IMG/VR virus record: IMGVR_UViG_3300032301_000105
Location: 1 to 36,960 of that record
Length of the DNA: 36,960 nt
Reading direction: 5' to 3' (one strand)
DNA from: a virus
Taxonomy: Duplodnaviria; Caudoviricetes
Shown: positions 3,685 to 36,417 of the stretch, one piece after another
Layout of the letters: each line of letters starts with the position of its first letter
How positions within the stretch are numbered: the first letter of the stretch is position 1
Translations under genes and position numbers: made by a program
The notes under the pieces: generated by a model
Seen by the model: the letters and a program-made list of their open reading frames with translations, nothing else
The model's database searches: none
What the model was told of the DNA's origin: nothing

Positions 3685-3953
3685 TCGCTCTTCCTTTTCC
3701 CTGCGTAGACTGCCTGCACTGATAATTTAAATTCAAAAAAGTTCTTTAATTCATTATACCCTATAGTGAAGTCTGGGTCAAGATCAATTCTTGGCACATA
3801 ACCACTAAGTTTCATTTGTGATATCAATAGTCGAACGTACTCTTCTTTGAGCCTTCCAATCATTGAATCGTCATGAATTATTCCATCAAGATAAAACCTT
3901 TTGATAGGCTTATGATGGTATGACTCACCCGATATATCGTTCTTTTTTGACAT
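3597..3953 (-). CDS. hypothetical protein between helicase and primase
   Basis: 118-aa ORF; TATAAT 5 nt upstream of ATG; overlaps the primase start by 88 nt. Confidence 0.7.
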   Translation of the reverse strand: MSKKNDISGESYHHKPIKRFYLDGIIHDDSMIGRLKEEYVRLLISQMKLSGYVPRIDLDPDFTIGYNELKNFFEFKLSVQAVYAGKRKSEWIAGIDGTNPIFIPQSKSSESLQDRVLP

Positions 3954-13602: not shown

Positions 13603-14234
13603 TATACTTCTTCCAAAGTTACTGAGACATTCCAATAGTCAAAATTGGTTCCTCTTTTTTCTACAGAGTATGAAAAACTTGATATAAACATTTCTACAAG
13701 TTGGTTATACTGCTGCAGGTGATCATATGGGCTTTCTGTTCCTTTAAAAATTCCTTTTCTATCGTATGCAAGAAATACCCAGAAAGAACCTTTATGGCCG
13801 TCATACCATTCAAGCATATCTGCAGCACCTGCTCCGCCATCTGTTGTGTATGACTTGTGAGGAGATATTCCTGTTGTTGGATCAAATCCAGGAATATTTG
13901 CATGTGACCTTGAAGGAATCATTGTCCAACTAGTACTAATCTTCATCTTATCTGCAGTATGGTATGACCTCATACGGCCATTAATCATTCTTTCTCTTTT
14001 TTCAATACGCTCATCTGAAAAATCCAAAGGAGATCTATTGTCATCTGTAAGCATCAAGAACTGGTCTAATAGTTCTGGATCTGCTTCATCGGGAGCATTT
14101 ACACCTACCTCAAAACCATTTGGAACATACAAACCATTTATCAGGGTACCAGAGTTTTCAGACCATAGAATACCGCTAGGCCTGTTATATTTCTTTCGGC
14201 TCTGCATATAGGAAAACCTTTGATCATCTACCAT
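13602..14234 (-). CDS. distal tail protein-like
   Basis: Immediately downstream of TMP; ERMINGRMRSY and terminal WNVSVTLEEV resemble Dit/gpM-like proteins. Confidence 0.6.
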   Translation of the reverse strand: MVDDQRFSYMQSRKKYNRPSGILWSENSGTLINGLYVPNGFEVGVNAPDEADPELLDQFLMLTDDNRSPLDFSDERIEKRERMINGRMRSYHTADKMKISTSWTMIPSRSHANIPGFDPTTGISPHKSYTTDGGAGAADMLEWYDGHKGSFWVFLAYDRKGIFKGTESPYDHLQQYNQLVEMFISSFSYSVEKRGTNFDYWNVSVTLEEV

Positions 14235-17200
14235 TTATAACAACCCCTCTAACTCTTCTATCGTCAACTTCTTTAATTGTTGACATTACTGCCCTTGCAA
14301 TTTCATTTGGATTAGCATCTGTTTTTGCATTAACTGTCAATGTGTATGTATTATTATACACTGCCCCGCCAGTTGTATCTCCATTATTTATCTTCTTAAG
14401 ATTATCTACACCGTAAGAATCTACAGCATACTTGCTCATTACAAACTCTCCTGGAGTTAGCATTGCTGGAACTGTGTCAGTACCTACTGCATACCCTCCT
14501 GCTGCAAAATACTTAGGAACTAGTCCACCCATAGACATTCTGCCTTCAGAAAGTCTAAAGAATCCTCCACCACTAGTTAGCAACTTTGTTGCATTTGCTG
14601 CTGCTGCTTTGGCATCTGCTGCAGCCTGTGCTGCTGCAGCCTGTGCTTTTGCTGCTGCATCTGCTGCTGATTGTTGTGCTGCAGTTCTTCCTTTATCTCC
14701 ATCAAGTAACAGATAGTCTGAACGATCTCCAAGATCAAAACCAAGAGAAGAACTAAGGCCATCATCCTTACCCTTAATTGCCTTGTCTAATGCTGCAATT
14801 GCAGCGTCATCAATTGCCTTCTTTTCTTCAAGAACCTTTTTTTCATCTGCTGTGACTACTGCAGCAACTGCTCCCTTTATTTCTGGATCAGTTGAAGAAT
14901 ACGCTGCAGAGACTATTGGATCATTTCCGCTTGCTAGTTCTGTGTTATATCCGTTAATTAAATTATCTTTAGTACTTAAAGCAAGTTGCATTGATTCTAT
15001 AAACTTTTTACTATTTATCATAGCAAGGTCCACTTGGTTCTTTATTGCTTCCCAAGCATCTCTTGTTTTTCCGAGAACAGTTAGACCTTCAATATCTTTG
15101 TCTAACTGTATTTGTCTTAAACGAACAAACTCTTGTGCTGGTTCAATTCTATCTTCTTCAATTTTAAAGACTTCATCCTGAAGATTTTTAATTTCTTGCT
15201 CAAGTTGCTTTCTAGTTTTAAGTTTTCCGTCAGTCTTATCAAGTCCAGTTGCACCCATTAACTCGTACTCTCTAGACTTTTCTATTGCATCCTTTTGTTT
15301 TGTTACAGCATCGGCAGCCTGCTGCGCCCTCATATCTTGTGCTGCTCTGGCTGCTGCTGCGATGTCTCCAGATGTCAACGCTTCAGCAAGAGTTAGTTGG
15401 CCCTTTTGCTGATTAGAAATAGCAGCATTTGCTTTTTCTACTTCATCTAAAGCCTTAATTCTTTCATCATACTTATCGTTAATTTTTTGTTCTTGATCCT
15501 CGATAGCCTTAAGCGCTGCTTCTTTATCATCAACCTTATACTGAATTAATGCAATCTCTTCTTGTGCTTTTTTCATTACATCTTCTTGTGATTTTGTATC
15601 TAACTTAAACTTTATGTTAAGAGCAGTTTCCTGAACATCAAAAGCCTCCATAGCATTTCCAAAACCTTTATCGAACATATCCTGCATAAACCCAATAGTG
15701 CTCTTTAATTGATTTAGCCTTGTATCAAAGTTGTCAGATATCACCTTTAAATCATCTTGTGCAGTTTTAATATATTCTGGTTTAGATTTTGTGTCTATTA
15801 GTCTTTGTAGTTTTGCTTGTTGCGTAGCCCTAGCATCTTCTAGTGCTCTGAGGTTTTCATCTAACCCAAGTGCAAATGCCGTTGTTGAACTATAATTCTT
15901 TCTAATTCTATCTTCTTGCACTCTATCTTTTTTAAATTGATCTATGTCTGTTGTTACTGCTTTAACCGCTGCCTGTCTTTTTTGTGCTGCTGTTAATATG
16001 TTATAATTTTTTGCTAAAGTTGCAACTGATTTTGAGTTCTTTTCCATAGCAATTGCTTGAGCAAGTCCTGCATTCTCAACCAACTCATAGGCCTCTGCAA
16101 CTGGAACTCCTATAGAGGTTAACTTTTTAAAGGCTATTGCTTGATCTTTAATGACCTCAGTTTCTGCTTCTGTTTTTGAATTAAAGTCTCCCATGGCTAC
16201 TGAGTTTAGCGCTTCTTGAATATTTTTGGCATCCTTCTTTAAAGCAATAATGTTTCCCTTATTATCAAACTTAAATAAAGAATTCTTTTTCTTTTCGTAT
16301 TCTTTTGGATCCATACCGACAATGAGAGATATAAGGTCTTCACTTCCACCTATTTTCCTTATGTCATTTTCTATACCGCTGAAAGCATCAAGTGTCTTGC
16401 TGCCACCAAATAGGCCATCTAAGGCCTTACGAGAGGCACTCCAGCCTTCTGTGACCTTGATCTGGTTCTTTCGTACATCCCTTAGTTTCTTTACTAGGTC
16501 GTCTAGAGGTGAGGACTGTACTTTGGTTCCCGTTCCTGTAGTTGTGGTAGGTGGTGGCTTAGTTGTATCCCCTGAAGTCTCTGTTACAGTCTGAGTTTTG
16601 GCAGTAACATAATCTTGGAAACTTTTTCCAGCATTTGTTTTTCCATCTTCACCCTTTTCTCCTAGCCAATTTTTGTAGGCTAGTTGCATGGCTGGGTCGC
16701 CTTCCATGCTCATCATTACCTTCATGTTTTGTAAATAAACCTTTTGCTGCTCTGCAGGTAATTTGTCAAAGTATTCTTGGTCTGCCTTTAGCAATGCCAT
16801 TTCTTCTGCACCAAAAACTTCTGTTTTTGCTACAATATCTAAAGTTACTTTTCCCTTAAGAGCATCGATTACATCTATTGATTTTTGAAGATCTTTTGCT
16901 GCATCTGGATTTGAATTATAATAATTTAATAGAACATCTTTATCTACTACAGTTGCTGACTGAGATATTCTCTGAAATAGTTCAAGTTCTTTTTGTGCTT
17001 CAGCAGCAGTTTGAGTTTTTATGCGAGCAACAAAATCTGCTGCTTGTTTTTTGTCTTTAAACATGCCAACGATTCCCATCATTTGGTTAGCAAATGCTCC
17101 ACCAAATTGACCAATAATAGTAACTACCGATTCAACAGATGCCTTGTCCTTACCAAAAGTGTCAAAGATTTCAATCATTTGCATAGGATCAATTTGACCA

Positions 17201-20200
17201 CTAGCCATTTGCATTTTTAGTGTGTATTGCATCTCTTTGGATATGCCAGAATCATTTATCTGTGTTTGAGCAAGTGGAACCACATCTTCTAATGCTGTTC
17301 CTTTGTACTGCTTAGTAACTGCTTTATCTGCTCCCGTCATTAATGCATCTTTAGTTGCACCGTCTGATTCTGCATAACTCTTTTGAATGTCACCTACTAG
17401 TGTTGCATTTTCACCGAGCAACCTAAGTTGATCTGCTTCAAAATTTGTTGTTAGTCTTTTTATTTCCGCTGTATCTCCTGCAGCCTCTGCAACTGCAAGT
17501 TCTTTTTGATATTGCAATTCTACAGAATCTGTTAATTCTTGTTGTTGCTGTAAAGCAATTTTCTGCATAGCAACTGATGCACCAGAAGATTCTCCAATTC
17601 TTTTGCTTCTATCTTTTCTGCCAAAGAAGTTTCCTGCTATACCACCGATAGCAGTTCCTGCAAGGGCTCCTACCTTTGCTCCAATAACTGCTCCTGCTAT
17701 AGTTCCCGCTGGACCTACTATAGATCCAATTAGGCCTCCTATACCACCACCAGCAATCGCTCCACCTACTGCACCAATTCCCATACCTGCTGCAGTATAT
17801 CCAGCAGATACACCAGCATCCTTAGCAGTCCAACCTCCAGCCTTTCTTGCTGAGTCTGTAGAAAGATTCATTTTCTTTCTTGTTTCTTGCAAAAGCCTTA
17901 CTTCAAGGTCTACCCCATCCTTTAAAATATTTTCTCCTTTTGGCCCAAGAAGTTTAATAAGTTTTGCATTTACTTCAATTCCAAACGAATAATCTCCAAG
18001 TTCTTTTCCAAGGTTTGCTGCGATGCTTCGTGCTTGTTCGGCAGACAATACTCCAGATGCCACTGCGGTTGAAAGTTGATTTGCAACTTGATCTTTGGCA
18101 ACACCCTTACCACTCATCTTCATGGTTTGTGTAACATTTTTTGCCATGGCTTTTCCACCTTCACCCGCCATGTAAGATTCACCAAATGTTGTTTTCCCTG
18201 TCTTTATTTGGAAGGGAGAAAAAGAGTCTTTTCTTCGCTTGGACATGATCTCTCCTGCGCCAACTGTTGTTGAAAATTCGGATAGTGATTTCATAGCGTT
18301 TGATCCAGAGCCCATTGCTTCTGTAAGTTCCATTGCTGCATCTTGTGCTTTATCAAATGCTATTCTTTGATAAGCATATGCTGCCACTATTGCTCCGACT
18401 CCAACTGCAAGTGCTGCAAATTTATTTTGAAGCATTGGCATAATCATAGCCATACCCATTAGTGGCATCATTATCTTTTGTGAAATTTCCCCAACTTTTC
18501 CTGGAGCCATTGAACCAATCATTGCTACACCAGATGCAACACCCATTGCAGCACCCATACCTTGTCCACCTGGGCCTGATGCTTTTAGTGTTGACATTGT
18601 GTTGCTTTTAAATCTTTGTGCCTTAGTTGTTTCAAATTTTCCATTTGCCATCACTGGGCCAATTGGAGTTTGAGATACGGCAGGCGCTGGTGTAAATTGT
18701 GCTGCTGCCTTTTCACTAATAATTCTTTTTTGATATCCAACAGAGTTTGCAATCTTGCTTCGCTTTTCCATTTGTCTACGTAAAGACTTTGCTTCTGCAT
18801 CTATTGGCCCAACACCGTACAATTTAGTTCTTGATGCTGCAATCTTTGCCTGTGTTTTTGCATCTTCTCTTTGAATCTTTTGCAGTCTTCTTCTTACAGA
18901 TTTTGCTTCAGCATCTACTGGTCCCGCACCATATAGCGCTGTTCTTGATGCTGCTGCTGCTGATTGAGATAGAGTTGTTCCAATTGTACTTCCAACTGCT
19001 TTTGCTTCAGCAATAGATGTTTTTGCTCCAGCAACTACTGCATCTGACAGCCTGACAACTGATCCTGGCATAGAAAGATTTTGTTTTGTAAGGTCAATGT
19101 TAGGAGCATCTGCTTTTCCAATAACTCTTCCTCTGGGGCCTTGACGAACTTGTGAAGCAACACTCTTTGGTGCAACTCTTGTATCTTTAATACTGCCAGA
19201 GTCTGACTTTAATTTACCATTGTTTGGCTTTGTAGATATTGGCTTTATATCGCCCTTCTTATCTTGAAGAACTTCATCTGGCTTTACTAGAATTGAGCGA
19301 TGGAAGTTGTAAACCTTTTTCCAGTCTGCATCCAATCCAGCCTGAAGCCTCTTGTACATATCTTCATAAACTTTCTTGGCTGGATCTCCGTCAGCAAGTT
19401 TAAATCCATCGATAGTCTTTCTTAGTTTTGGAAGAGTTCTATTAATCTCTTCCTTTATCTTTCTCTCGTAATCTTCTGCAGATTGAATATTTTGAGGAAT
19501 ATCTGCAGTTGCATTTCCAAACCAGAAAGGTGATGCATTGGCATTTGCTCCTGGAACACCCTTTAGGTTGTGCATTGCTATGTCTTGCATTGATGGAAGA
19601 CCTGCTGAATATGATCTTGTTCCCGAAGCCTTATCAAATACTCCTGCTGCTCCAACATCTGCTAGAACATTTCCTCCAAGATTACCTTTCTTAAGATCTT
19701 TATCTGCACGAAGGCTTGAAGCAACTAATTGTCTAAAATAATCTCTTTCAGTAAATGTTTTTGGCATTGTGTTAGGGTCAAATCTTGGATCAAATGGAGA
19801 CTCTAATACAATAACCTTTCTTTTCTTATTAACATCTGGCTCATCAATATCCGTAGGATCAATCATTGTTCTAATTGTTTGCTTTGGTGCTGCTAGTCCA
19901 TGAACACTTCTTGCAATTTCTGTTGCTCTTTTTTCTGCTACAGCATCTAATTCGCTTAACATTGGCTTTACAAATACTTTTTTACCGTCTGGCTTTGTAT
20001 AAACGCCTCCGATAGTTGACATGAAATTGCTTCTTCCAGAACTTTGTGTTTCTTGAACACCAAAGTTTGTTGGCTTCTTTGCACCGTACTGTGTTTGGCT
20101 TGCTGCTGTTGCAACTTCTTTTAACTTTTCTTTATGCTCTAATGCTTTTTCAATATCTATTAATTTTGGTGCAACGAGTGGAACTGCAATCTTTGTTTTC

Positions 20201-23109
20201 TTTGCTCCCTTTGTTCCTTGAGAAATTATAGGAGTTGTTCCTGCTCCAAGCCTGTTCATGTTAACAACGGTTCCTTCTGGAACCTGAACTCCGTGGTATG
20301 TACCTGCTGGAAGTGTTACAGTTGATGACCCAGTTACTACTTTACCTTTACTATTAACTCTTTCAACAATGTCAAAGTCTTTAATCAAACCTTGTCTTTT
20401 TGCTTCATCAAGAATTCTTCTGCTTTCTTCTGGTGTTGTTCCAAGACCCTTACCCATATTAAATCTATAGTCTGAAACATAAAGTTGCTGAGACTTTACA
20501 TAACCTGGATCGTTTGGACTTATTACCTTTGGAATTTCTTTTTTATACAGATCATCCATTATTCCATCATTTATGTGTGGGCTTTTAACATCTTGAATCA
20601 CCTTTAAGAAAGCATCGTCTAGGGCTTGTGCCTGTACTGGGCTCATTCCAGATGGTGCCCATTTTGCTGCGCCTAGTTTTACCCACTCATCTATGAATAC
20701 TTGCTTAGGAACTCCGCTTGTGAAACTTGGCATAGCCTTGTTCATCCACTCAGGGAAATTAAACATTAGGCTGTGTTTTGTTGTTGTTACTGGTGGCAAT
20801 CCCTGAGATACAAGAACCTGCTCCATAGTTATAAGTTTTAATTTTTGATCAGCAGACATATTGGGGTTAGATTTAATTATGTCTGATATAAGTCTTGGCT
20901 CACTCTTTCCACCTACGTGGGTTTCATTAATTGGCTGAGCATCTGTTGTTCCACCATTAAACCCTTGAATAGTTCCTCCTGCAACCATGTGTGCAATAAA
21001 TGGTCTGTTTGCTGGGTCCTGTGCTGCCTGCTGAGGAATTACTGCTTCACCTGGTGTCAATACTGATGGAACAGTATCCTTGTTTCCTGTTCCTGGAACC
21101 CTTGTAGTTCCAGTAGAATATTTCTTAGGCCCTGGCATTCTTTTACCAGCAGGTGGACCAGTAAATCCTAACTGTGCTGCGATGGCTCTTCTATACGCAT
21201 TGGCCAGCATGTTAACTGCTGATGCTTCAGATGTAAAGGTTTGCTTAAGTTTGGTGTGTACTTGATCAAGAGATGCTGCTACTGCTGATGCCTCTAGTTG
21301 CTCTTTAGTTAAATAGTTTGTCTGGTCCCCCAAAACTTTGCTGGCAGAGCCAGTTTTATTGTACATGGACTTCATTCCTGCAAATAATTTAATAATGTTG
21401 GCAACTGCGTTTGCAATCAAACCAAATGTCATAAGAAGAACTGGACCAACGCCTGCTACTGCAACTGTAAATATAGTTAAAAACTTCTTGCTACCATCTC
21501 CAAGGTTATTGAACTTGTCAAGAATTTTTCCAACAAACTCAACAATAGGGGTGAGCGCTTTTAGAAATTGCTCTCCTACAGGAGCAATAGCAACCTTTAA
21601 GTCTTCCATAGATTTTTTAAACTTATAGGTTGTTGTGTTTTGAATTCTGCTTAATTCTCTTTCAGACAAAATTGCTAGTTCTTCTGTTGTTGCATTTGCA
21701 AGTTTTAGTACTCTTGCTGCCTGTGTGCCTTCACCTATTACGTTTTGAAATAGTGTTGAAAGTCTTGAGAACTGGAACTTACCAAACAACTGCTCAATAG
21801 CACGAGCACGGTTAAGTGGATCTAGGGTGTCTAGGGCTTGAGCAAAACCAATAACAGTGCTCTTTACATCGCCCTTGTTTGATTCAACAATACCCTTGAT
21901 ATTTATTCCAAGACCCATAAGCATCTTTGATGCTTTTTCTGATGGGTTAATTAGTGATGCAAGTCCAGACTTAAGTGCGTTAGCGCCTTCAGATGCATTA
22001 ATTCCACCTTCCTTCATTGCTGTAAGGAAGAAGGCTAAATCTTCTACATCTCCACCCAACTGCTGAACAACTGGTCCAGCCTTTGGCATTGCGATTGTTA
22101 AATCTTCAATTGATACAACAGTTTGGTTTTCAACTGCGTTCAGGAAGTCAATCTTTTTGGAAAGATCTTCTGTTGCAACACCAAACGCATTTGTTACTGA
22201 AATAGTTGTTTCTAAAGCCTGTGTCTGCTCTACACCACCAAGGACTGCAAGACGAGTTGCTTGTGCAACCTGTGCAGTTAGGTCTGCACCCATCTTACCC
22301 ATTGCTGCTGCATCTGCAGCCATCTTCATTGTATCTTCTACGGCTACGCCATATTTAGTGTATTCTTTTGCAAGCAGTTGAATCTGCTTGACCATTTGAT
22401 CAGTTTCTTCTTGTGTCGTAAAGAGTTCTCCATACACACGCTTGAATCTAATAGCCTGCTCTTCAAGTTTCATGAATGTCTTTGAAGCAGTTGTTCCAAG
22501 CATTGCTAGAGGAACAGTAAAACCAACCATCAACTGACGGCCTGCCCACTGAGTATTCTTACCGAAGTTTAAAAGGTTTGTTGAGCCTTGCTTTAAAAGT
22601 TGATTAAGTAGTTGCTGTCTTTGTGCAGCAATGGCAGTCTGTGTGCCAAGATTTTTCATGTCAAGAGTTAGAGGTCTTACTGCAATTGCCTGTAAGGATC
22701 CATTTGCACCACGACCCAGTTTAATGTACTGGGTCTGTATATCCTTTACACGCTCTCGTGCAACCTTATTGATTGTTTCAAATTCAGTCTTAAATAATCT
22801 ACCGAATGTTTTTGTTGCTGCACCAGTGTATCTAAAATACTCTCTTGATGTTAATTTGTTTCTTTCTAAAGAGTCAGTAAACTGCTCTGTACTTGACGTT
22901 ACTGATCGCATTGATGCCTGGAATTGTCCAGTAGCATTTATGCTGTTCATCAAGTTCTGTGCTTGATTTGCTGCCACCGCAGATGCTGCAGTGCCAGACT
23001 TTGCCATTTGTGTATGGAAGGCTGATATTTGACGTTGTAGAAGTTTTAGACTTGCTAAAGCATCAGACGTATCAATATTTACATGAATATTGGATTCTAC
23101 ATCAGCCAT
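14224..23109 (-). CDS. tape measure protein (2961 aa) with internal cargo domains
   Basis: TP901-type TMP core (about aa 210-450: MGKMGADL...NAFG...AMKEGGINASEGANALKSGL), hydrophobic segments, long coiled-coil C-half, position after chaperones; SD AGAGGTG. Confidence 0.93.
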   Translation of the reverse strand: MADVESNIHVNIDTSDALASLKLLQRQISAFHTQMAKSGTAASAVAANQAQNLMNSINATGQFQASMRSVTSSTEQFTDSLERNKLTSREYFRYTGAATKTFGRLFKTEFETINKVARERVKDIQTQYIKLGRGANGSLQAIAVRPLTLDMKNLGTQTAIAAQRQQLLNQLLKQGSTNLLNFGKNTQWAGRQLMVGFTVPLAMLGTTASKTFMKLEEQAIRFKRVYGELFTTQEETDQMVKQIQLLAKEYTKYGVAVEDTMKMAADAAAMGKMGADLTAQVAQATRLAVLGGVEQTQALETTISVTNAFGVATEDLSKKIDFLNAVENQTVVSIEDLTIAMPKAGPVVQQLGGDVEDLAFFLTAMKEGGINASEGANALKSGLASLINPSEKASKMLMGLGINIKGIVESNKGDVKSTVIGFAQALDTLDPLNRARAIEQLFGKFQFSRLSTLFQNVIGEGTQAARVLKLANATTEELAILSERELSRIQNTTTYKFKKSMEDLKVAIAPVGEQFLKALTPIVEFVGKILDKFNNLGDGSKKFLTIFTVAVAGVGPVLLMTFGLIANAVANIIKLFAGMKSMYNKTGSASKVLGDQTNYLTKEQLEASAVAASLDQVHTKLKQTFTSEASAVNMLANAYRRAIAAQLGFTGPPAGKRMPGPKKYSTGTTRVPGTGNKDTVPSVLTPGEAVIPQQAAQDPANRPFIAHMVAGGTIQGFNGGTTDAQPINETHVGGKSEPRLISDIIKSNPNMSADQKLKLITMEQVLVSQGLPPVTTTKHSLMFNFPEWMNKAMPSFTSGVPKQVFIDEWVKLGAAKWAPSGMSPVQAQALDDAFLKVIQDVKSPHINDGIMDDLYKKEIPKVISPNDPGYVKSQQLYVSDYRFNMGKGLGTTPEESRRILDEAKRQGLIKDFDIVERVNSKGKVVTGSSTVTLPAGTYHGVQVPEGTVVNMNRLGAGTTPIISQGTKGAKKTKIAVPLVAPKLIDIEKALEHKEKLKEVATAASQTQYGAKKPTNFGVQETQSSGRSNFMSTIGGVYTKPDGKKVFVKPMLSELDAVAEKRATEIARSVHGLAAPKQTIRTMIDPTDIDEPDVNKKRKVIVLESPFDPRFDPNTMPKTFTERDYFRQLVASSLRADKDLKKGNLGGNVLADVGAAGVFDKASGTRSYSAGLPSMQDIAMHNLKGVPGANANASPFWFGNATADIPQNIQSAEDYERKIKEEINRTLPKLRKTIDGFKLADGDPAKKVYEDMYKRLQAGLDADWKKVYNFHRSILVKPDEVLQDKKGDIKPISTKPNNGKLKSDSGSIKDTRVAPKSVASQVRQGPRGRVIGKADAPNIDLTKQNLSMPGSVVRLSDAVVAGAKTSIAEAKAVGSTIGTTLSQSAAAASRTALYGAGPVDAEAKSVRRRLQKIQREDAKTQAKIAASRTKLYGVGPIDAEAKSLRRQMEKRSKIANSVGYQKRIISEKAAAQFTPAPAVSQTPIGPVMANGKFETTKAQRFKSNTMSTLKASGPGGQGMGAAMGVASGVAMIGSMAPGKVGEISQKIMMPLMGMAMIMPMLQNKFAALAVGVGAIVAAYAYQRIAFDKAQDAAMELTEAMGSGSNAMKSLSEFSTTVGAGEIMSKRRKDSFSPFQIKTGKTTFGESYMAGEGGKAMAKNVTQTMKMSGKGVAKDQVANQLSTAVASGVLSAEQARSIAANLGKELGDYSFGIEVNAKLIKLLGPKGENILKDGVDLEVRLLQETRKKMNLSTDSARKAGGWTAKDAGVSAGYTAAGMGIGAVGGAIAGGGIGGLIGSIVGPAGTIAGAVIGAKVGALAGTAIGGIAGNFFGRKDRSKRIGESSGASVAMQKIALQQQQELTDSVELQYQKELAVAEAAGDTAEIKRLTTNFEADQLRLLGENATLVGDIQKSYAESDGATKDALMTGADKAVTKQYKGTALEDVVPLAQTQINDSGISKEMQYTLKMQMASGQIDPMQMIEIFDTFGKDKASVESVVTIIGQFGGAFANQMMGIVGMFKDKKQAADFVARIKTQTAAEAQKELELFQRISQSATVVDKDVLLNYYNSNPDAAKDLQKSIDVIDALKGKVTLDIVAKTEVFGAEEMALLKADQEYFDKLPAEQQKVYLQNMKVMMSMEGDPAMQLAYKNWLGEKGEDGKTNAGKSFQDYVTAKTQTVTETSGDTTKPPPTTTTGTGTKVQSSPLDDLVKKLRDVRKNQIKVTEGWSASRKALDGLFGGSKTLDAFSGIENDIRKIGGSEDLISLIVGMDPKEYEKKKNSLFKFDNKGNIIALKKDAKNIQEALNSVAMGDFNSKTEAETEVIKDQAIAFKKLTSIGVPVAEAYELVENAGLAQAIAMEKNSKSVATLAKNYNILTAAQKRQAAVKAVTTDIDQFKKDRVQEDRIRKNYSSTTAFALGLDENLRALEDARATQQAKLQRLIDTKSKPEYIKTAQDDLKVISDNFDTRLNQLKSTIGFMQDMFDKGFGNAMEAFDVQETALNIKFKLDTKSQEDVMKKAQEEIALIQYKVDDKEAALKAIEDQEQKINDKYDERIKALDEVEKANAAISNQQKGQLTLAEALTSGDIAAAARAAQDMRAQQAADAVTKQKDAIEKSREYELMGATGLDKTDGKLKTRKQLEQEIKNLQDEVFKIEEDRIEPAQEFVRLRQIQLDKDIEGLTVLGKTRDAWEAIKNQVDLAMINSKKFIESMQLALSTKDNLINGYNTELASGNDPIVSAAYSSTDPEIKGAVAAVVTADEKKVLEEKKAIDDAAIAALDKAIKGKDDGLSSSLGFDLGDRSDYLLLDGDKGRTAAQQSAADAAAKAQAAAAQAAADAKAAAANATKLLTSGGGFFRLSEGRMSMGGLVPKYFAAGGYAVGTDTVPAMLTPGEFVMSKYAVDSYGVDNLKKINNGDTTGGAVYNNTYTLTVNAKTDANPNEIARAVMSTIKEVDDRRVRGVVINGR
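18769..18954 (-). repeat. imperfect in-frame tandem repeat in TMP, 114-nt period
   Basis: AASRTALYGAGPVDAEAKSVRRRL vs AASRTKLYGVGPIDAEAKSLRRQM. Confidence 0.85.
19280..20060 (-). other. HipA/PI3-4K-like kinase domain embedded in the TMP
   Basis: GGVY..DGKKVFVK (K1048), AVAEKRATEIARSVHGLAAP (E1059), DKDLKKGN (D1138/N1143), LADVG (D1151). Confidence 0.7.
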
Positions 23110-23127: not shown

Positions 23128-23454
23128 TTAGTTATTTGCAAGGCTGCCGATTAGTGATGCGTCAGAAAGTTTAATTCCTGATGCTTCTTCGACAATCTTG
23201 TATACTGTTGGAAGATCTAGATTTTCTTCTAGGGCTTCCTTGTCTTCTGCCAACTCTGGCTTGTATTGTTTCATTGCGATTTGAACACAGTCCATTAGCA
23301 AATCCATAGACTTTTCGTTATCTTCTGCAACCTTTGCAATATCTTCAAACTTCTTCATAAATGGACGAAGTAGTGAGATTTTAAGTGGTCTAACCTTGAT
23401 CTTAGTACCATCAATTAGTGTTACTGTTTTTTCTTCTGTTGTGGCGGTTGCCAT
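23128..23454 (-). CDS. tail assembly chaperone, short form (G-like)
   Basis: Lies between major tail and TMP; SD AAGGAGG; paralog of the N-half of the upstream gene. Confidence 0.75.
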   Translation of the reverse strand: MATATTEEKTVTLIDGTKIKVRPLKISLLRPFMKKFEDIAKVAEDNEKSMDLLMDCVQIAMKQYKPELAEDKEALEENLDLPTVYKIVEEASGIKLSDASLIGSLANN

Positions 23455-23480
23455 TTATTCCTCCTTATAAGGTTTAGTCA

Positions 23481-23489
23481 ATTATACCA
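23481..23489 (-). promoter_or_regulatory. extended -10 promoter TGGTATAAT with SD-containing leader
   Basis: TGGTATAAT-tgactaaaccttat-AAGGAGG-aataa-ATG. Confidence 0.65.
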
Positions 23490-23509
23490 TAGCGGAGGCT
23501 TATTTTTTG

Positions 23510-24190
23510 CTATTCATAAACCTCGTAGGTTAGACCCATACCAATTCCAAACCCTGCTTTTTCGGCGTTTGCACCCTGTAATGCAAGAATATCTCTTCCA
23601 TCTGTTGTTGCTCCATTGCTAAACACTCTGGCCTTCATGTCTTCCCATTCATTACCACTACCAGAGTTTTTATCTAAATCTACACCTTGCATAGCAGCAG
23701 CAAATTTTTTATCGCTATAATCTAATTCTCTTTTTATTTTTAATGTGGCTGTGAGTTCTTGCATTGACATTGATGATTCTAACTGGTCATAGTCTTTCCA
23801 TATACCGATTAAAAAAACCTCTGATTCCAGTTTTGCTAAGTCTAGCGTATCCCAAGTCGATCCACTATCAACTGCTTGATTTTTAACAGTATCTTCTGAC
23901 TTCTCATTAATCTTAATTCCTGCTGCAATATCGATTACTTCGTATATTGTTGGTAGATCAAGGTTGTCTTCTAGATCTTCTATTGTTTTAATTGATGGGC
24001 AGTACTGTTGCATTGCTATTAGGGCACACTGAGCCAGAACTGATATTGATTCATCATCCGTTTTTGCTTCCTTGATTGTTTCAAAGGTTTCTAAGAATTC
24101 TCTTAAATATTTAATTTTTAATGGAGCAGCAACAACAATCCTATCATCCACTAATGATATTTTTTTGGTTTCGTATATTTTTGTTGCCAT
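23510..24190 (-). CDS. tail assembly chaperone, long form (GT-like, 226 aa)
   Basis: Start moved to ATG 24190, 6 nt after TGGTATACT; the N-terminal ~95 aa align with the short chaperone, followed by an in-frame C-terminal extension. Confidence 0.72.
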   Translation of the reverse strand: MATKIYETKKISLVDDRIVVAAPLKIKYLREFLETFETIKEAKTDDESISVLAQCALIAMQQYCPSIKTIEDLEDNLDLPTIYEVIDIAAGIKINEKSEDTVKNQAVDSGSTWDTLDLAKLESEVFLIGIWKDYDQLESSMSMQELTATLKIKRELDYSDKKFAAAMQGVDLDKNSGSGNEWEDMKARVFSNGATTDGRDILALQGANAEKAGFGIGMGLTYEVYE

Positions 24191-24196
24191 TATACA

Positions 24197-24205
24197 AGTA
24201 TACCA
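24197..24205 (-). promoter_or_regulatory. extended -10 promoter TGGTATACT, leaderless
   Basis: TGGTATACT-tgtata-ATG directly after a terminator hairpin; no SD. Confidence 0.65.
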
Positions 24206-24209
24206 AACA

Positions 24210-24241
24210 GAAAGGCCCAACCCCGAAGGATTGAGCCTCTC
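24210..24241 (-). terminator. intrinsic terminator-like hairpin after the major tail gene
   Basis: GAGAGGCTCAATCC-TTCG-GGGTTGGGCCTTTC, 14-bp stem with GU pairs and a cUUCGg tetraloop, followed by TGTTT. Confidence 0.75.
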
Positions 24242-24254
24242 ATATTAAGTTGTA

Positions 24255-24923
24255 TTATGCTAGAGAACGATCTACGATTCTACCGTATGATGCGTCATCG
24301 TTTGGAAGAAGACGGAATGATACTTCAAACATTGAAGCCTCATCACGCTTTGCTGATACTGTTACATTCTCAATTGAGAGTGCACGGTATGCAACATAAA
24401 TTCTTTCCTTTGGATCTGCTGCAGAACCAGAACCTGGTCCTACTGCTACAAGACCACGCTCTAATGGAACGTCGCCAATGTCGCCTGCAGACATCTTGAG
24501 AGTCTGTAGACCTGCTGCTTCTGGAGATAAGTCTCCTTCTTCTCCACCTTTACCTGCAATTGCTACTAGAAGATTTTCTAGTGTTGCCTCTGCAAAAGAT
24601 GTATTTAGATTAACTGTCATACCTTGCTTGAATAAACGAGCAACGTCGAGAAGTTGATCTACTGCTACATCACCAAAGTCTGGCTGGAATGCGAGTTCCA
24701 AACCGTTTGATGTATAACCGATGTTTGTGAATGCATTGTTGTTTGACAATGTATGCTTGTATGATACTTCGCTTGCTGCTAATCCTGTTAGGACTGCGTC
24801 TGCTCCTGCATCAGTAATCTTATTGGTTGCTTCAACGTAACCAATTGGACCTGCATTATGTGTAAAAAGTGCTGCTGCACCCACGATAATGTTACTACTT
24901 GAACCACGACTATAATTAGCCAT
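24255..24923 (-). CDS. major tail (tube) protein (222 aa)
   Basis: Start moved to ATG 24923 (SD AGAGGTG); NIIVGAAALF...IGYTSNGLEL...VDQLLD...FAEATLENL; followed by a terminator and the chaperones. Confidence 0.85.
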   Translation of the reverse strand: MANYSRGSSSNIIVGAAALFTHNAGPIGYVEATNKITDAGADAVLTGLAASEVSYKHTLSNNNAFTNIGYTSNGLELAFQPDFGDVAVDQLLDVARLFKQGMTVNLNTSFAEATLENLLVAIAGKGGEEGDLSPEAAGLQTLKMSAGDIGDVPLERGLVAVGPGSGSAADPKERIYVAYRALSIENVTVSAKRDEASMFEVSFRLLPNDDASYGRIVDRSLA

Positions 24924-24973
24924 ATATCTCACCTCTTTCATTTTTATTAAAAGGGGGTTGTTTCCTCACTCTA

Positions 24974-32667: not shown

Positions 32668-35600
32668 TTAGGCAGGATCAATGACCAGTTGGCTCCATTC
32701 AACATCTTTATAGGTTGTATACTTATAATTGCCGAAGCGTAAAAGGCTGTCATCCTCTACTATTATCTTATTTGTTCCCGTATAACTCTTGTAAACTTCT
32801 GATGGATTAACCCCATAATAACTTGTTTCTGACAAAACTAGCACTTTGTTCCAGTTAAACGATCCGATATTCCAAAACTTCCAATCTAGGTCTCTAGAGT
32901 TTAAAATCTTAACTCTAAGCCAAGGCCTCTCGGAAACATTCTGAACCTCCTGCAAGTTTGTTGACTGATAGAAAGATATGTTATTAAAAAGTAGTGGCCC
33001 TGTGAGTCTAATGGCTCCCTCAAAATATGAAAAATTTAAACTGTCTAAGAAATTAATGCCAAGAAATCCCCAATCTTGTAGGGTTATAACTGGCTCTTTT
33101 ACAATTTTGCCATTCCAATAAAATCCAATTCCGTTTTGTACTAGTCCAGTTTTTGTATCAATTGCATAAATTTTTGCTCTTCTTCCACTAGGATCACAGG
33201 CAACCATGTAAAATTTTATGTAAGAGCCCCTACTCTCTATTTCAAAAATTTCTGTTGGTGCATATGGAAAATAGTCTCCATCAAACCTAACTGCAAGTTG
33301 CATAGCAATAACCTTGAACCCGTCTGCCCTGCTTGTATTTATAGGAATCATAAGTCCTCTATTGATAAGTGGATCGTAAATTCCTTTTAATTGTATACCG
33401 CTCTTTTTTGTTAAATACAGATATGGAGACGATGCATTATAAATTGAAAAAGGATTATTCTTTTTAAAATCATAATAAATTCCAGACTTTGTATATGGAT
33501 AAATAGGAGTTCCAAATCTTGTGCCGATTGGACTTGCATCTGATTCATTCAATGCTTGAGAAGCATAAGACATATCTTTTATACTAACATTATTAACTGA
33601 TGAATTTTTTACGTTAATGTCTATATGAGTAACTATTGACAAATCATTAAAATCAACACCTGAAGGAGGATAGATTATCATATTGTCAACCACTTCATAC
33701 TTTGTTCTCATCCAGTCAGATCCTGGAATTAAAACACCATTTCTTTCTGGTTTTTCTATTTTAACAAAATATTCGGAAGTTGCATTTGCTCCAAGTTTAG
33801 TATATTGAAATGTAATGTATGTTTTTACTAGTGAGCCTTCTGTATCATATTTATAACTTTTTGCTATTTTATTTTTTAAATCTTCATAATCATTATATCC
33901 AGTAAATAAATAGTTATCTAGTGAATCATAGTTTCTTTGAACTGGTAATCCATATTCATTAGAAAGTTCTGCATATGTCCATTCAACAGGATCTGTCTCT
34001 ATTGCAAGAGTTTTTGAAGGTATTGGATAATTAAAATTAAACTGAATAAAGTCAAGATCAAAATATTGATCCCCTCTTTTATCAAAAACAGACTCTGCAA
34101 AATATGTAAGGGGCAAGTTGTCTTCCCAATATCCATTTGATGATACGGCAAGCGTATATTTTTCAAATAGAATATCTGGAACTAAGGTATAACTGGCTGT
34201 GTGCTCAATTAGATAGTCTTCTTCCATAAGAACAACACCTCCACCATCAACTGCCCCAGGAGATAAGTCTGTAAGTCCTCTGTATGGTGGCTGAGAAACA
34301 GTATCAATTCCACCATCAACATCTACTATTTGGTTATTTTGATAAACATCAAATAGGTTTTCATTAAGTTTTGGAATGCCAAGTTCGTTAAACAAGTTTT
34401 TTATTTTTTGAAAATTATACTTTGTTGCAAATCCAATATTATAAATTTTTCCTGTAAAGGTAAAAGTATTTGTTGATGCGCTACTCTTGTCTCCTCCAAC
34501 ATAAAGCCTTAAGTCTGACAACGAACCAAAGAAACTAGACACAGGGTTTCCAAATATTTCTACAAATCTAGGAATGTTTATACCAACTTCAATAAATTCA
34601 TTTTCATTTAAGTCTTGGGAACTGTAAATAACTTCTGTTTTTCCATTTGCGTAAATGCTATAAACTATTCTATTATTAGAAACTTCTATTTTAAAATAAT
34701 CCAAAGTATTTTCTTTTTCAATTTTAAAAAGCGTTTGTGGCGCTGTTACATTTCCTTTTAGTTTAAAACATCCGTAAAATGCCGATATCGGAGTATTTAA
34801 AATATCAAAGTTTTCAAAAAATAAATATCCTTTAACATTATCCCATGCAGATGATGGCCTAAATGTAAAATAATCTCTTTGATCATATAAAAAGTTTTGT
34901 GTGTTTGATGTTAAGTTGGCAGTTTTATTTTCATTAAACAACTCAGACTCTGTCTTTGAGGATAAGACTGTTTTTGGAAGTGGGTGAGAGATTACAGAAA
35001 GTGCTTTGTTTGTGGTAGATAAATTATCGCTAAATCCTTGATTCCAAGATCCAGTTTTTGGATAAGAATAGTTTGCTGTATAGTTTGCAAAAGAATAATC
35101 AACTGACACAGAGGTCCCGCTATATGATGTATTAATATTTTCTGGTATCTCGACTCCCTGACCAAACACAAACCTTCTTTTTGCAACTGCCGAAGGAACC
35201 AGGTAAGGATAAATTCCAATGCAGTCTATATCTATTGGTGATACATCATCGTATGCATAAAAACCTATCCAGTCTTGATTTTTAGTTCCCGCAAACTCTG
35301 ATGGCAAAACTGCCAAGTCTTGATCATGTGGAATTGATACAACCTCTGTTCCATTAATTAGTAGAGATGCAAGGTCTTTCCCAACCTTCAAATGGATAAG
35401 CATTGGCCTTGTCCATTCTCCAACATAGTTTGTCTTGTATTCGTTGCCAATCTTTAACCCAATTGACGGTCCATCAACATATATTCCATCGGCTGATGCA
35501 ATAGGGCCAATAATTCTTTTCCTATCATTAGTGTATGAGTTTACCCTAAGCCATGTTTCTAAAGTATATTGTTTGAATTGTCCTGATTGATTTAACATTC

Positions 35601-36417
35601 CAACTCCAGGAACTATTAGTGAAGGATTTAGGCCATTTGCAAAAAGCGTTGTATGCCCATCAGTTCCATAAACAAGAGGGATTCCAGAATTTTTTGCTTT
35701 TAACATGTTATCAGATGCAAGATAGTAACCATCTAGTTCTTGAAGTCCGTAACATTTAGCAGGAACACCTTTTTGTGGTGATATAGAAATTGTTGATGGA
35801 ATATCTACTAGCGATGTCCCAAGAGATGTAGAAGAAAACTCTTCTGACCATTGGCCCAAAGTTATTCCGTTAACCCTAAACACATGCTTTGCTAAAGGAT
35901 CTCCTACAAACTTAATCTTGAAAACAAGTTTAATTGCTGTATCTTCTGGAGGTGTATCAAATGTTTCTGATATAAAAATCCAGTTATTATTTACTACTAC
36001 GTCAAAATCTTTAACATGTCTAATATCAGTACCGCTAGTTTTATCTCTATATTCATATCCAATTGAAAATCCTGATATGTAAGAACTTTCAGAATAAAAA
36101 TACCCACCTACTGAAAAAGTTCTAAGATATGTATTCAAACTTTTTAGGTTAATAATTTCAGGACTAACTGCAGTTATAGATGCTTCTTTATCTATGTTAG
36201 GGGTTGCAACAATTCTATAAACAGAACTATTCTGGAAAGGCTCTCCAGTTGATTCTGGATATTTAGATGAAGTTCCTCCACTTACATTCCAGACCGACAA
36301 ATCTCTTTGTGACTCGGAAATCAAAGAAATATAGTCTGCGTTATCATCAAGTGCCCACAAACCTGTAGGGTGTTCTGAAAACACCTTTTCGGCATATAGG
36401 TTTGATGAAGTAGACAT
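32668..36417 (-). CDS. large beta-rich protein, probable virion protein with LamG/ConA-like domains
   Basis: N-terminal YAEKVFSEHPTGLWALDD, YTLETWLR and FTGKIYNIGF resemble LamG-like phage proteins. Confidence 0.55.
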   Translation of the reverse strand: MSTSSNLYAEKVFSEHPTGLWALDDNADYISLISESQRDLSVWNVSGGTSSKYPESTGEPFQNSSVYRIVATPNIDKEASITAVSPEIINLKSLNTYLRTFSVGGYFYSESSYISGFSIGYEYRDKTSGTDIRHVKDFDVVVNNNWIFISETFDTPPEDTAIKLVFKIKFVGDPLAKHVFRVNGITLGQWSEEFSSTSLGTSLVDIPSTISISPQKGVPAKCYGLQELDGYYLASDNMLKAKNSGIPLVYGTDGHTTLFANGLNPSLIVPGVGMLNQSGQFKQYTLETWLRVNSYTNDRKRIIGPIASADGIYVDGPSIGLKIGNEYKTNYVGEWTRPMLIHLKVGKDLASLLINGTEVVSIPHDQDLAVLPSEFAGTKNQDWIGFYAYDDVSPIDIDCIGIYPYLVPSAVAKRRFVFGQGVEIPENINTSYSGTSVSVDYSFANYTANYSYPKTGSWNQGFSDNLSTTNKALSVISHPLPKTVLSSKTESELFNENKTANLTSNTQNFLYDQRDYFTFRPSSAWDNVKGYLFFENFDILNTPISAFYGCFKLKGNVTAPQTLFKIEKENTLDYFKIEVSNNRIVYSIYANGKTEVIYSSQDLNENEFIEVGINIPRFVEIFGNPVSSFFGSLSDLRLYVGGDKSSASTNTFTFTGKIYNIGFATKYNFQKIKNLFNELGIPKLNENLFDVYQNNQIVDVDGGIDTVSQPPYRGLTDLSPGAVDGGGVVLMEEDYLIEHTASYTLVPDILFEKYTLAVSSNGYWEDNLPLTYFAESVFDKRGDQYFDLDFIQFNFNYPIPSKTLAIETDPVEWTYAELSNEYGLPVQRNYDSLDNYLFTGYNDYEDLKNKIAKSYKYDTEGSLVKTYITFQYTKLGANATSEYFVKIEKPERNGVLIPGSDWMRTKYEVVDNMIIYPPSGVDFNDLSIVTHIDINVKNSSVNNVSIKDMSYASQALNESDASPIGTRFGTPIYPYTKSGIYYDFKKNNPFSIYNASSPYLYLTKKSGIQLKGIYDPLINRGLMIPINTSRADGFKVIAMQLAVRFDGDYFPYAPTEIFEIESRGSYIKFYMVACDPSGRRAKIYAIDTKTGLVQNGIGFYWNGKIVKEPVITLQDWGFLGINFLDSLNFSYFEGAIRLTGPLLFNNISFYQSTNLQEVQNVSERPWLRVKILNSRDLDWKFWNIGSFNWNKVLVLSETSYYGVNPSEVYKSYTGTNKIIVEDDSLLRFGNYKYTTYKDVEWSQLVIDPA

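What the first reader, a model, noticed from the sequence alone, without database searches (positions are those of the whole stretch)
19280..20060. Kinase domain embedded in the tape measure protein: candidate virion-injected effector
Seen: TMP residues ~1020-1275 are not helical TMP-like. They carry the core kinase motifs in correct order: SSGRSN...GGVY..DGKKVFVK (beta3 Lys1048), AVAEKRATEIARSVHGLAAP (alphaC Glu1059 in an E..A..IA...GL..P pattern), catalytic loop DKDLKKGN (Asp1138, Asn1143), Mg-binding LADVG (Asp1151) and a final helix MYKRL. Established: this layout characterises HipA-like/PI3-4K-like kinases; TMPs are ejected into the host at infection; the TMP enzyme domains I know of are mostly peptidoglycan hydrolases; phage kinases such as T7 gp0.7 are made after infection. 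Inference: the phage delivers a ready-made kinase with its DNA, to phosphorylate host defence or translation proteins (or a lipid or small molecule) before phage gene expression. Caveat: the Asn-to-Asp spacing (8 aa) is shorter than usual.
Basis: partly seen in the sequence, partly recalled or inferred. Interest (0 to 1): 0.88.

Follow-up and report, generated by a model that had tools for sequence, protein, structure and literature searches.

The report
Kinase cassette inside phage tape measure
The giant tail 'ruler' protein of this uncultured phage, which likely infects actinobacteria, carries an optional 270-residue module predicted to fold as an atypical kinase with its catalytic residues conserved, so the virus would likely deliver a kinase into the cell along with its DNA, although neither activity nor delivery has been tested.

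Summary
Observation confirmed; interpretation partly supported. Residues ~1010-1280 of the 2961-aa tape measure protein (TMP; window 19270-20082, minus strand) fold confidently (pLDDT 92.6). The best structural matches are CotH (Z 11.9), PI4K-II, CtkA, MavQ, Fam20C and HipA, and all 50 listed hits are kinase-like folds. K1048/E1059/D1138/N1143/D1151 are intact in 130 of 131 relatives at 23-56% identity; dN/dS is 0.05-0.09. The short Asn-Asp spacing is a family constant (131 of 131). The domain is an optional cassette: 43 of 99 backbone-selected TMPs have it, always in one variable slot (171 of 171) where relatives also carry HAD phosphatases and HIGH-type transferases. It is not HipA or PI3K proper, because their catalytic-loop His/Arg is missing. 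'Ready-made' is doubtful: it would have to travel unfolded in the tail and refold. Most likely it is ejected with the TMP and phosphorylates host proteins at the inner membrane face. Activity, substrate, packaging and possible cleavage are untested. Ten paper searches found no description of it. This scan has already noted the same cassette on at least six other genomes.

The parts
14224..23109 (-). Tape measure protein, 2961 aa
   Evidence: PF10145, PHROG TMP families, TIGR01760
19270..20082 (-). Atypical kinase-fold cassette, aa 1010-1280
   Evidence: AF2 pLDDT 92.6, pTM 0.91; VIA CotH Z 11.9 rmsd 4.2 over 217 aligned; conservation
19999..20037 (-). Gly-rich loop region G1025-x-S1027...G1035-x-Y1037
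   Evidence: G 131, S 130, G 131, Y 127 of 131; role inferred
19933..19968 (-). beta3 Lys1048 and alphaC Glu1059
   Evidence: 131 of 131 each; strand E35-41 and helix H44-61 of the model; align with a HipA_2 N-lobe, HHalign E 0.0022
19651..19704 (-). Catalytic loop D1136-x-D1138-L-x-x-x-N1143, minimal hairpin, D1151-V-G
20215..20931 (-). Second, swappable globular cargo domain, aa ~727-965, fold not identified
   Evidence: AF2 pLDDT 83.9; best VIA Z 5.2, no BFVD hit at E<=0.001; 72 BLAST rows, the query's own included
20950..21126 (-). Junction module copy 1 (G..D.VP..L.PGE.V), aa 662-720, upstream border of the cargo slot; candidate processing site
   Evidence: weak match to lambda gpH 729-798 (E 0.008)
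18562..19269 (-). Basic linker aa ~1281-1516 (net charge +25 over 1280-1520) between kinase and hydrophobic block
21373..21492 (-). Hydrophobic segment A, aa 540-579 (possible membrane hairpin)
   Evidence: Kyte-Doolittle scan; topology inferred
18355..18561 (-). Hydrophobic block B, aa 1517-1585 (downstream border of slot)
17632..17793 (-). Gly-rich hydrophobic block C, aa 1773-1826
   Evidence: sub-threshold DUF6861 match
14365..14526 (-). Junction module copy 2 near the C-terminus, aa ~2862-2915
23128..24941 (-). Upstream tail genes: Ig-domain major tail protein (24255-24941) and two chaperone-like ORFs (23510-24220, 23128-23454)
   Evidence: phrog_2175, phrog_10504; same order as Streptomyces phage Karimac gp57-60

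Best explanation
Residues 1010-1280 of the tape measure protein are a conserved, optional cassette predicted to fold as an atypical kinase, which is likely packed unfolded in the tail, ejected into the host with the tape measure protein, and would then refold on the cytoplasmic side of the membrane to phosphorylate host proteins at the start of infection. Shown here: conserved catalytic residues, purifying selection, a modular position in a variable slot, and a siphophage-type tail gene order. Predicted: the fold. Inferred: packaging, ejection, cytoplasmic topology (basic linker before the hydrophobic block; ATP is needed), protein substrate, and an anti-defence or takeover role like T7 kinase.
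For: Fold: all 50 listed VIA hits are kinase-like folds, led by CotH Z 11.9, PI4KIIa 10.4, MavQ 9.9, CtkA 9.4, HipT 8.5 and HipA 8.0 (similar in 105); Foldseek's best is CtkA, E 1.7e-3. The neighbouring TMP insert run through the same pipeline gave no such match (best Z 5.2). Catalytic set intact in 269 of the 270 domains that cover all five sites, with 16 partial domains set aside; dN/dS 0.048-0.09 in 4 comparisons, two of them identical values. Always fused: 457 hits among 1628-5182-aa proteins; the 6 hits at near-domain length all lie on contigs under 2.8 kb; 122 of 150 representatives match the query's TMP backbone. Modular: 43 of 99 backbone-selected TMPs carry it, in the slot in 171 of 171, with at least 5 gains or losses on a backbone tree of 91. 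Relatives' TMPs also carry HAD domains (10 of 344 proteins, most with DxD) and HIGH-type transferase domains (15 of 344), in the slot wherever a slot could be defined; the transferases are nucleotide-using enzymes, which fits a cytoplasmic destination. No hydrophobic segment lies in the slot (223 of 223), and the 200 aa before block B are net basic in 218 of 223. Related kinase folds occur in other long phage proteins annotated as ADP-ribosyltransferase or portal. TMP ejection and TMP-borne enzymes are established (PMC12617516 and 10.1101/2022.09.20.507954, passages). The loop D-L-x-x-x-N lacks the Arg seen after the Asp in the PI3_PI4 and HipA_2 consensus.
Against: No activity, substrate, virion proteomics or cultured carrier: no kinase match among 50,697 INPHARED records (in one search the listed hits cover only the junction module). 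Structural matches have rmsd 4.2-5.5 and 8-16% identity, and Z values within about 1 are tied, so protein kinases (CotH, CtkA, Fam20C, HipA) and lipid kinases (PI4K-II, MavQ, Vps34) cannot be separated. No Foldseek PDB hit reaches E<=0.001. HHalign probability to HipA_2 is only 13%, and PI3_PI4, HipA and CotH are at or near control level. The +2 Lys typical of Ser/Thr kinases (recalled) is present in only 9 of 131. The top hit, CotH, acts outside the cytoplasm (recalled). Topology rests on hydropathy and charge only. The junction module may mark cleavage, and lambda may lose half of its cleaved pieces, so the cassette could be absent from virions. 56 of 99 related TMPs do without it.
Confidence: 0.45

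Rival explanations
1. An ejected, membrane-tethered lipid or small-molecule kinase: it phosphorylates phosphatidylinositol or another headgroup or metabolite at the entry site, changing the membrane around the DNA channel.
For: PI4K-II alpha/beta, MavQ and Vps34 score Z 9.3-10.4, close to or tied with the top hit. The ESM Atlas's nearest named clusters are LepB_N (0.93) and PI3_PI4_kinase (0.92). The domain sits beside a basic linker and hydrophobic segments. Actinobacteria have phosphatidylinositol (recalled; one search gave only listings). Co-resident HAD and HIGH domains suggest small-molecule chemistry.
Against: The Arg after the catalytic Asp is absent (Leu in 129 of 131). HHalign to actinobacterial PI3_PI4-family proteins gives E 0.56, no better than the reversed control. 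HAD co-occurrence (10 of 10) is not above the 83% base rate of this kinase-enriched set.
Confidence: 0.2
2. The kinase acts on the phage's own proteins or in the producer cell. It autophosphorylates the TMP or modifies tail parts during assembly, or it is cut out at the junction modules and works late in infection (for example superinfection exclusion), and is never injected.
For: The junction-module HMM matches lambda gpH 729-798 (E 0.008, Z=1000), just downstream of the estimated gpH*/gpHC cut whose exact site is unknown. In 36+16 of the relatives' architectures the kinase starts within 100 aa of module 1 and 2-3 further copies follow it. Late-gene HipA-family kinases of Gratiaviridae were proposed to act against superinfection (PMC8008677 passages).
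Against: In lambda and T5 the cleaved TMP pieces stay at least partly in the virion. In this protein the only other module copy is about 1600 aa downstream, so a cut would leave the kinase attached to the membrane and rod part. A producer-cell function would not need fusion to the TMP, yet no clearly stand-alone form was seen.
Confidence: 0.2
3. It acts outside the cytoplasm, CotH-like, on envelope proteins or glycans, or on eukaryotic grazers that eat infected cells (Trojan-horse idea).
For: CotH is the top structural hit (Z 11.9). The Trojan-horse idea was proposed for ADP-ribosyltransferases of freshwater phages (PMC6802176 passages).
Against: HHalign to CotH gives E 0.78, at control level. 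The CotH consensus loop is D-w-P-x-N, unlike D-L-x-x-x-N. Charge bias favours the inside, and ATP is scarce outside the cell (general knowledge).
Confidence: 0.1
4. A pseudokinase or nucleotide-binding structural domain, or a non-kinase chemistry on the kinase fold (ATPase, AMPylation).
For: Unusually short beta7-beta8 hairpin; variable +2 position; no sequence-level kinase family hit.
Against: The full K/E/D/N/D set is the most conserved feature of the domain, as expected for Mg-ATP catalysis.
Confidence: 0.05

Closest known systems
CotH spore-coat kinase (PDB 5jda/5jd9; PF08757)
   Same: Best structural match: Z 11.9, rmsd 4.2, 217 aligned over model residues 1-258.
   Different: 9% identity; no Pfam or HHalign support; different catalytic loop. 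The phage CotH domains described so far are fused to C-type lectins, not TMPs (PMC8008677 passage).
HipA / HipA_2 / HipT / CtkA kinases (PF07804, PF20613)
   Same: Same fold clade (CtkA Z 9.4-10.4, HipT 8.5, HipA 8.0-8.3). The N-lobe AE...A..L.GL..P pattern aligns with HipA_2 (E 0.0022 against 0.91 reversed). N/D-x-D...N loop register.
   Different: Lacks HipA's +2 His and HipA_2's +1 Arg; shorter Asn-Asp spacing; embedded in a virion protein. An antitoxin partner was not looked for.
PI4K type II / MavQ / LepB-N / Vps34 lipid kinases
   Same: Z 9.3-10.4; LepB_N is the nearest named ESM cluster.
   Different: No Arg after the catalytic Asp; profile comparison at control level.
Polyvalent proteins and MuF/portal-fused virion effectors, T4 Alt (Iyer et al. 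2017, PMC5512222)
   Same: The same concept: enzymes, kinases among them, fused to virion proteins and proposed to be injected, with cassette shuffling (passages).
   Different: Their kinase lacks the C-terminal subdomain and occurs mainly in Verrucomicrobia-Chlamydia and Bacteroidetes (pro)phages. Ours keeps a full helical C-lobe and sits in a TMP. 'Tape measure' occurs 0 times in the main text; the FTP supplements were not seen.
T7 kinase gp0.7 and JSS1_004 anti-defence kinases
   Same: Phage kinases that disarm host defences (PMC13645617 and PMC12345140: abstract starts and passages).
   Different: Stand-alone genes expressed after entry, of a different kinase family (PMC8008677 passage). 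Ours would arrive as protein.
TMP-borne enzymes (T5 pb2C metallopeptidase; TMP peptidoglycan hydrolases) and TMP cleavage (lambda gpH*/gpHC)
   Same: Enzyme domains inside TMPs, ejected at infection, some cleaved off (passages). Weak module match to lambda gpH.
   Different: The known examples act on the cell wall and need no ATP; in T5 the enzyme is at the C-terminus. This one is an ATP-dependent fold at residue ~1000 between hydrophobic segments.

Membership tests
Protein-kinase-like superfamily | Bilobed kinase fold over the whole domain | tested here: met
   Predicted model: 50 of 50 listed VIA hits are kinase-like folds, 18 chains at Z>=8; similar
Protein-kinase-like superfamily | beta3 Lys, alphaC Glu, catalytic Asp, Mg-binding Asn and Asp, in order and conserved | tested here: met
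   130 of 131; 269 of 270 domains covering all five sites; secondary-structure placement
Protein-kinase-like superfamily | Five residues meet in one active site | tested here: inconclusive
Protein-kinase-like superfamily | ATP-dependent phosphotransfer | not testable with these tools
   needs an assay
HipA (PF07804) | Catalytic loop N-x-D-x-H-x-K-N | tested here: not met
   HipA consensus from 6 loci is gNGDaHaKNfS; ours has His at +2 in 4 of 131
HipA (PF07804) | Profile match to HipA_C | tested here: not met
   None in the 25 families shown for 49 members (6 further families not shown); HHalign E 0.092
HipA (PF07804) | Cognate HipB/HipS antitoxin | not tested
   not searched for
HipA_2 (PF20613) | N-lobe pattern K...AE...LA..LGL..P | tested here: met
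   HHalign E 0.0022 over 64 columns, probability 13%; controls E 0.91 and 0.15
HipA_2 (PF20613) | N-V-D-R loop and Pfam score above cut-off | tested here: not met
   +1 is Leu in 129 of 131; no Pfam hit
PI3/PI4 kinase (PF00454), LepB_N | D-R-(H/x) catalytic loop | tested here: not met
   Actinobacterial PF00454 consensus NNADRK.GH versus DKDL...N; the eukaryotic DRH motif is recalled
PI3/PI4 kinase (PF00454), LepB_N | Fold similarity | tested here: met
   PI4KII Z 10.4, MavQ 9.9, Vps34 9.3
CotH (PF08757) | Fold similarity | tested here: met
   Z 11.9
CotH (PF08757) | Sequence profile and loop motif | tested here: not met
   HHalign E 0.78 against 0.74 reversed, on a thin 5-sequence profile; no Pfam hit
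Polyvalent-protein kinase (Iyer 2017) | Loss of the C-terminal subdomain; His before the catalytic Asp | tested here: not met
   The model has six C-lobe helices after D1151 and no His in the loop; definition from a passage
Virion-injected effector | Fused to a virion protein known to be ejected | tested here: met
   TMP identity; ejection from the literature
Virion-injected effector | Present in mature virions and reaches the cytoplasm | not testable with these tools
   No cultured carrier found

The most novel reading that the evidence does not exclude
A large family of ~118-kb actinobacterial siphophages uses its tape measure protein as a modular injection vehicle: a variable slot between membrane segments delivers intracellular enzymes (this new kinase family, HAD phosphatases, HIGH-type transferases, unidentified folds). 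The kinase would be the first virion-delivered phage kinase, rewiring host protein or phosphoinositide phosphorylation before any phage gene is expressed.
Probability: 0.4. Interest if true: 0.9.

Novelty: new variant of a known kind. Interest (0 to 1): 0.7.

Why it matters
Known phage kinases are made after DNA entry, and the known TMP enzymes attack the cell wall. A kinase carried in the TMP would act at time zero, ahead of restriction or abortive-infection systems. It would show that a long non-contractile tail can deliver ATP-dependent enzymes into the cytoplasm, as MuF, portal and T4 Alt fusions are thought to from the head. The family is large (171 clusters at 50% identity), invisible to Pfam, NCBIfam and PADLOC, and defines a new branch of atypical kinases with a minimal beta7-beta8 hairpin. 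The domain is small and well bounded, so it can be tested directly against a D1138A control.

Tried and rejected
Sequence-level family scans found no kinase family: Pfam, PHROGs, PADLOC (103), NCBIfam, PDB sequences by phmmer and by profile (10, 26; the protein kinase C rows match the N-terminal 140-190-aa constructs at E>=0.2 and are taken as chance). INPHARED tblastn: no kinase match; P0343's 15 listed hits of 161 cover only the junction module. Karimac TMP and lambda gpH lack the domain. HHalign in global mode gave nothing. GTDB genomes: 2 loci, in MAGs labelled Bifidobacterium and Acidimicrobiaceae, probably binned phage contigs, so weak host evidence only. Sequencing runs: no RNA holder listed. 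One freshwater-labelled run holds short contigs of the region, and the run spanning it whole may be its source, so habitat is not established. Misassembly is rejected because the arrangement recurs in 80+ independent viral contigs. Divergent kinases hidden in the 56 kinase-less TMPs: best score 7.3 bits with the wider profile. Second cargo domain aa 715-990: ESM Atlas 0.78 only and no fold identified; a His...Asn nuclease-like pattern (recalled) was not supported. A functional link between kinase, HAD and HIGH domains is not shown, because co-occurrence matches the base rate. The tree is the quick IQ-TREE run, with 9 of the 99 proteins left out as partial or redundant. Complex prediction was not used, as no binding is claimed. 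Literature: ten searches listed no paper describing a kinase domain in a TMP; the library lacks most subscription papers. Supplements of PMC5512222 and PMC6802176 were not read and could list such architectures.
Full report
Setting. The window is the whole record G000, a linear virus contig of 36,960 bases estimated 34% complete. Its long ORFs are almost all on the minus strand: portal, head protease, capsid, Ig-domain major tail protein, chaperone-like ORFs, the 2961-aa TMP at 14224..23109, minor tail proteins, DnaB, primase and SSB. The TMP's N-terminal 650 aa are closest to Streptomyces phage TMPs at 28-31% identity. The one record opened, Karimac (Stanwilliamsviridae), has the same tail gene order. 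WhiB is present in 3 of 5 related records, and in 3 of 3 complete ones of ~118 kb; among 14 control genomes only Corynebacterium has it. An actinobacterial host and a long non-contractile tail are therefore inferred.

Observation. The segment is widespread: 457 hits among long proteins, 28 and then 80 kept viral loci, and 171 clusters at 50% identity. In the 120 closest proteins the five residues are invariant, but so are about 26 other positions, so I calibrated on the more distant set. Among 131 near-full-length representatives (23-56% identity; 19 partial ones of 150 dropped), only G1025, G1035, K1048, E1059, P1075, Q1127, N1143 and D1151 are invariant; D1138 is kept in 130. Across all fetched proteins, 269 domains have the five residues, 1 has D1138V and 16 are partial. 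Simple dN/dS against four close loci is 0.048-0.09. The 8-residue Asn-to-Asp spacing is fixed in 131 of 131.

Fold. AlphaFold2 on a 71-row alignment gave pLDDT 92.6 and pTM 0.91. The model has a beta-rich N-lobe, one long helix carrying E1059, a catalytic loop, a hairpin of two 2-residue strands before D1151, and a helical C-lobe. VIA-align over 48,161 chains ranks CotH (Z 11.9, rmsd 4.2, 217 aligned), PI4K-II alpha (10.4), MavQ (9.9), CtkA (9.4), Vps34 (9.3), Fam20C (9.2), ATM, actin-fragmin kinase, HipT (8.5) and HipA (8.0). All 50 listed rows are kinase-like folds (similar). Foldseek's best PDB hit is CtkA at E 1.7e-3, with none at 0.001 or better. In BFVD, 7 hits reach E<=0.001; they include long phage proteins annotated ADP-ribosyltransferase or portal, and a PI3/4-kinase-domain protein. 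The ESM Atlas's nearest named clusters are LepB_N, HipA_2 and PI3_PI4_kinase at 0.92-0.93. As a control, the neighbouring insert (aa 715-990) also folds well (pLDDT 83.9) but matches nothing (best Z 5.2). Distances between the five residues could not be measured.

Which kinase family. No Pfam, PHROG, NCBIfam, PADLOC or PDB sequence search names a kinase. I built small profiles from actinobacterial members of four families and compared them with HHalign. HipA_2 aligns over the N-lobe (E 0.0022, probability 13%; reversed control 0.91). HipA gives E 0.092, and PI3_PI4 (0.56) and CotH (0.78) are at control level. The loops are in register: HipA_2 N-V-D-R, HipA N-G-D-a-H-a-K-N, PI3_PI4 N-A-D-R-K-x-G-H, CotH D-w-P-x-N, ours D-K-D-L-x-x-x-N. 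Ours has Leu at +1 in 129 of 131, and a variable +2 (S 54, Q 28, G 22, A 12, K 9, H 4). It therefore works like these atypical kinases but is a member of none; it is a separate family, so far seen only in TMPs or in fragments and long proteins that could not be classified. Of 150 representatives, 122 match the query's TMP backbone. Of the other 28, 17 were scanned with Pfam: one has OmpA, one a DUF1269 match, and the rest no family.

Modularity. Selecting TMPs by the backbone segment aa 1560-2060, 43 of 99 carry the kinase, and the other 56 score at most 7.3 bits with the wider profile. In 223 full-length TMPs I defined a slot from a junction module at aa ~660-720 to the hydrophobic block at ~1520. 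The kinase is inside it in 171 of 171 carriers, and the slot's median length is 793 aa with the kinase and 440 without. A quick tree of the N-terminal backbone (91 rows) needs at least 5 gains or losses; in the query's clade 36 of 37 keep it. Identities are mosaic: P0131 is 98% identical in the N-terminus but 49% in the kinase, and P0003 is 94% in the kinase but 15% in the mid-backbone. Other slot cargo includes several unrelated globular modules, HAD domains mostly with an intact DxD (10 of 344 proteins) and HIGH-type transferase domains (15 of 344).

How it would work. In lambda the TMP fills the tube as six extended chains, is ejected before the DNA, and is proposed to form a trans-envelope channel of 3-4 nm lumen. 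It is cleaved near its C-terminus at an unknown site, and the piece stays at least partly in the virion (PMC12617516, passages). T5 pb2 is cleaved between its hydrophobic stretch and a muralytic motif, and a refolding step after ejection is considered (10.1101/2022.09.20.507954, passages). Several folded 270-aa domains would not fit in such a tube (general knowledge), so 'ready-made' should read 'pre-synthesised, refolds on ejection'. The slot holds no hydrophobic segment (223 of 223) and ends in a basic stretch before block B (net positive in 218 of 223; +25 here). By the positive-inside rule (recalled) and the need for ATP, I place it in the cytoplasm; this is weak inference. The junction module occurs twice here and 2-5 times in 252 of 255 full-length relatives. 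Its profile weakly matches lambda gpH 729-798 (E 0.008) and Karimac's TMP, so it may mark processing sites; an earlier scan note (e1-6040648) makes the same link. A cut at module 1 would leave this kinase on the membrane-and-rod fragment. I commit to an ejected, membrane-tethered protein kinase acting on host proteins (0.45), ahead of a lipid or small-molecule kinase (0.2), action on self or in the producer cell (0.2), action outside the cytoplasm (0.1) and a pseudokinase (0.05).

Comparison and novelty. Virion-fused injected enzymes are a known kind. Iyer et al. 2017 (PMC5512222, passages) describe polyvalent and MuF/portal-fused effectors, including a kinase that lacks the C-lobe; 'tape measure' does not occur in the main text, and the supplements were not seen. 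Benler et al. (PMC8008677, passages) list T7-type, 933W, lectin-fused CotH and stand-alone late HipA-family phage kinases. T7 kinase and JSS1_004 are anti-defence precedents (abstract starts and passages). Kavagutti et al. (PMC6802176, passages) report ADP-ribosyltransferases in 24 freshwater phages, with 'kinase' at 0 occurrences in the main text. PMC7824862, PMC8718954 and PMC12363180 were seen as passages and added no TMP kinase. Ten searches listed no paper on a kinase in a TMP; the library lacks most subscription journals. The scan's own notes record the same cassette on six other genomes; they agree with my results but are not independent evidence.

Verdict. The feature is real, conserved, modular and apparently undescribed in the searched literature. 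The kinase fold is about 95% likely, an active enzyme about 90%, and delivery into the host about 65%; the substrate is open. New variant of a known kind; interest 0.7.

Noticed in passing
window 20215-20931 (-), TMP aa ~727-965: A second swappable globular cargo domain, confidently modelled (pLDDT 83.9) with no fold match (best Z 5.2). It has near-invariant H731-V-G and N790; the His...Asn pattern recalls beta-beta-alpha nucleases (from memory) but was not supported by the fold search.
   Followed up: partly
P0196, P0215, P0226, P0237, P0240, P0250, P0272, P0276, P0341, P0343: HAD phosphatase domains (PF03767-like, most with DxD intact) in TMP-type proteins, downstream of the kinase in all 10.
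   Followed up: partly
P0041, P0099, P0114, P0140, P0192, P0225, P0248, P0285 and others: HIGH-type nucleotidyltransferase-like domains (PF01467) in 15 of 344 proteins, often directly after the junction module.
   Followed up: partly
window 20950-21126 and 14365-14526 (-): Two copies of a G..D.VP..L.PGE.V module; 2-5 copies in most relatives; weak match to lambda gpH 729-798 near its cleavage region.
   Followed up: partly
P0026 (3824 aa): Carries the C-terminal-type module at 2861 and again at 3740, suggesting a ~900-aa extension or duplication of the TMP end.
   Followed up: no
P0333, P0246, P0235, P0117: Other enzymatic or binding domains in kinase-bearing long proteins outside or beyond the slot: peptidase M23, CHAP plus LysM, OmpA, pentapeptide repeats.
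   Followed up: no
window 32668-36417 (-): A 1249-aa ORF of low GC (31-37%) upstream of the portal gene, with no Pfam, PHROG or NCBIfam match; its sequence looks beta-rich, like a tail or receptor-binding protein placed away from the tail module.
   Followed up: no
window 23128-23454 and 23510-24220 (-): Two adjacent ORFs both match phrog_10504, suggesting duplicated tail-assembly-chaperone domains; frameshifting was not examined.
   Followed up: no
BFVD A0A6B9L6W7 (Mycobacterium phage Onyinye), A0A4D6E245 (Gordonia phage GodonK), A0A5Q2F0H9 (Gordonia phage Sixama): Cultured actinophages have long proteins with a similar predicted kinase fold (E 7e-5 to 4e-3); these could be tractable models for virion-borne kinases.
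   Followed up: no
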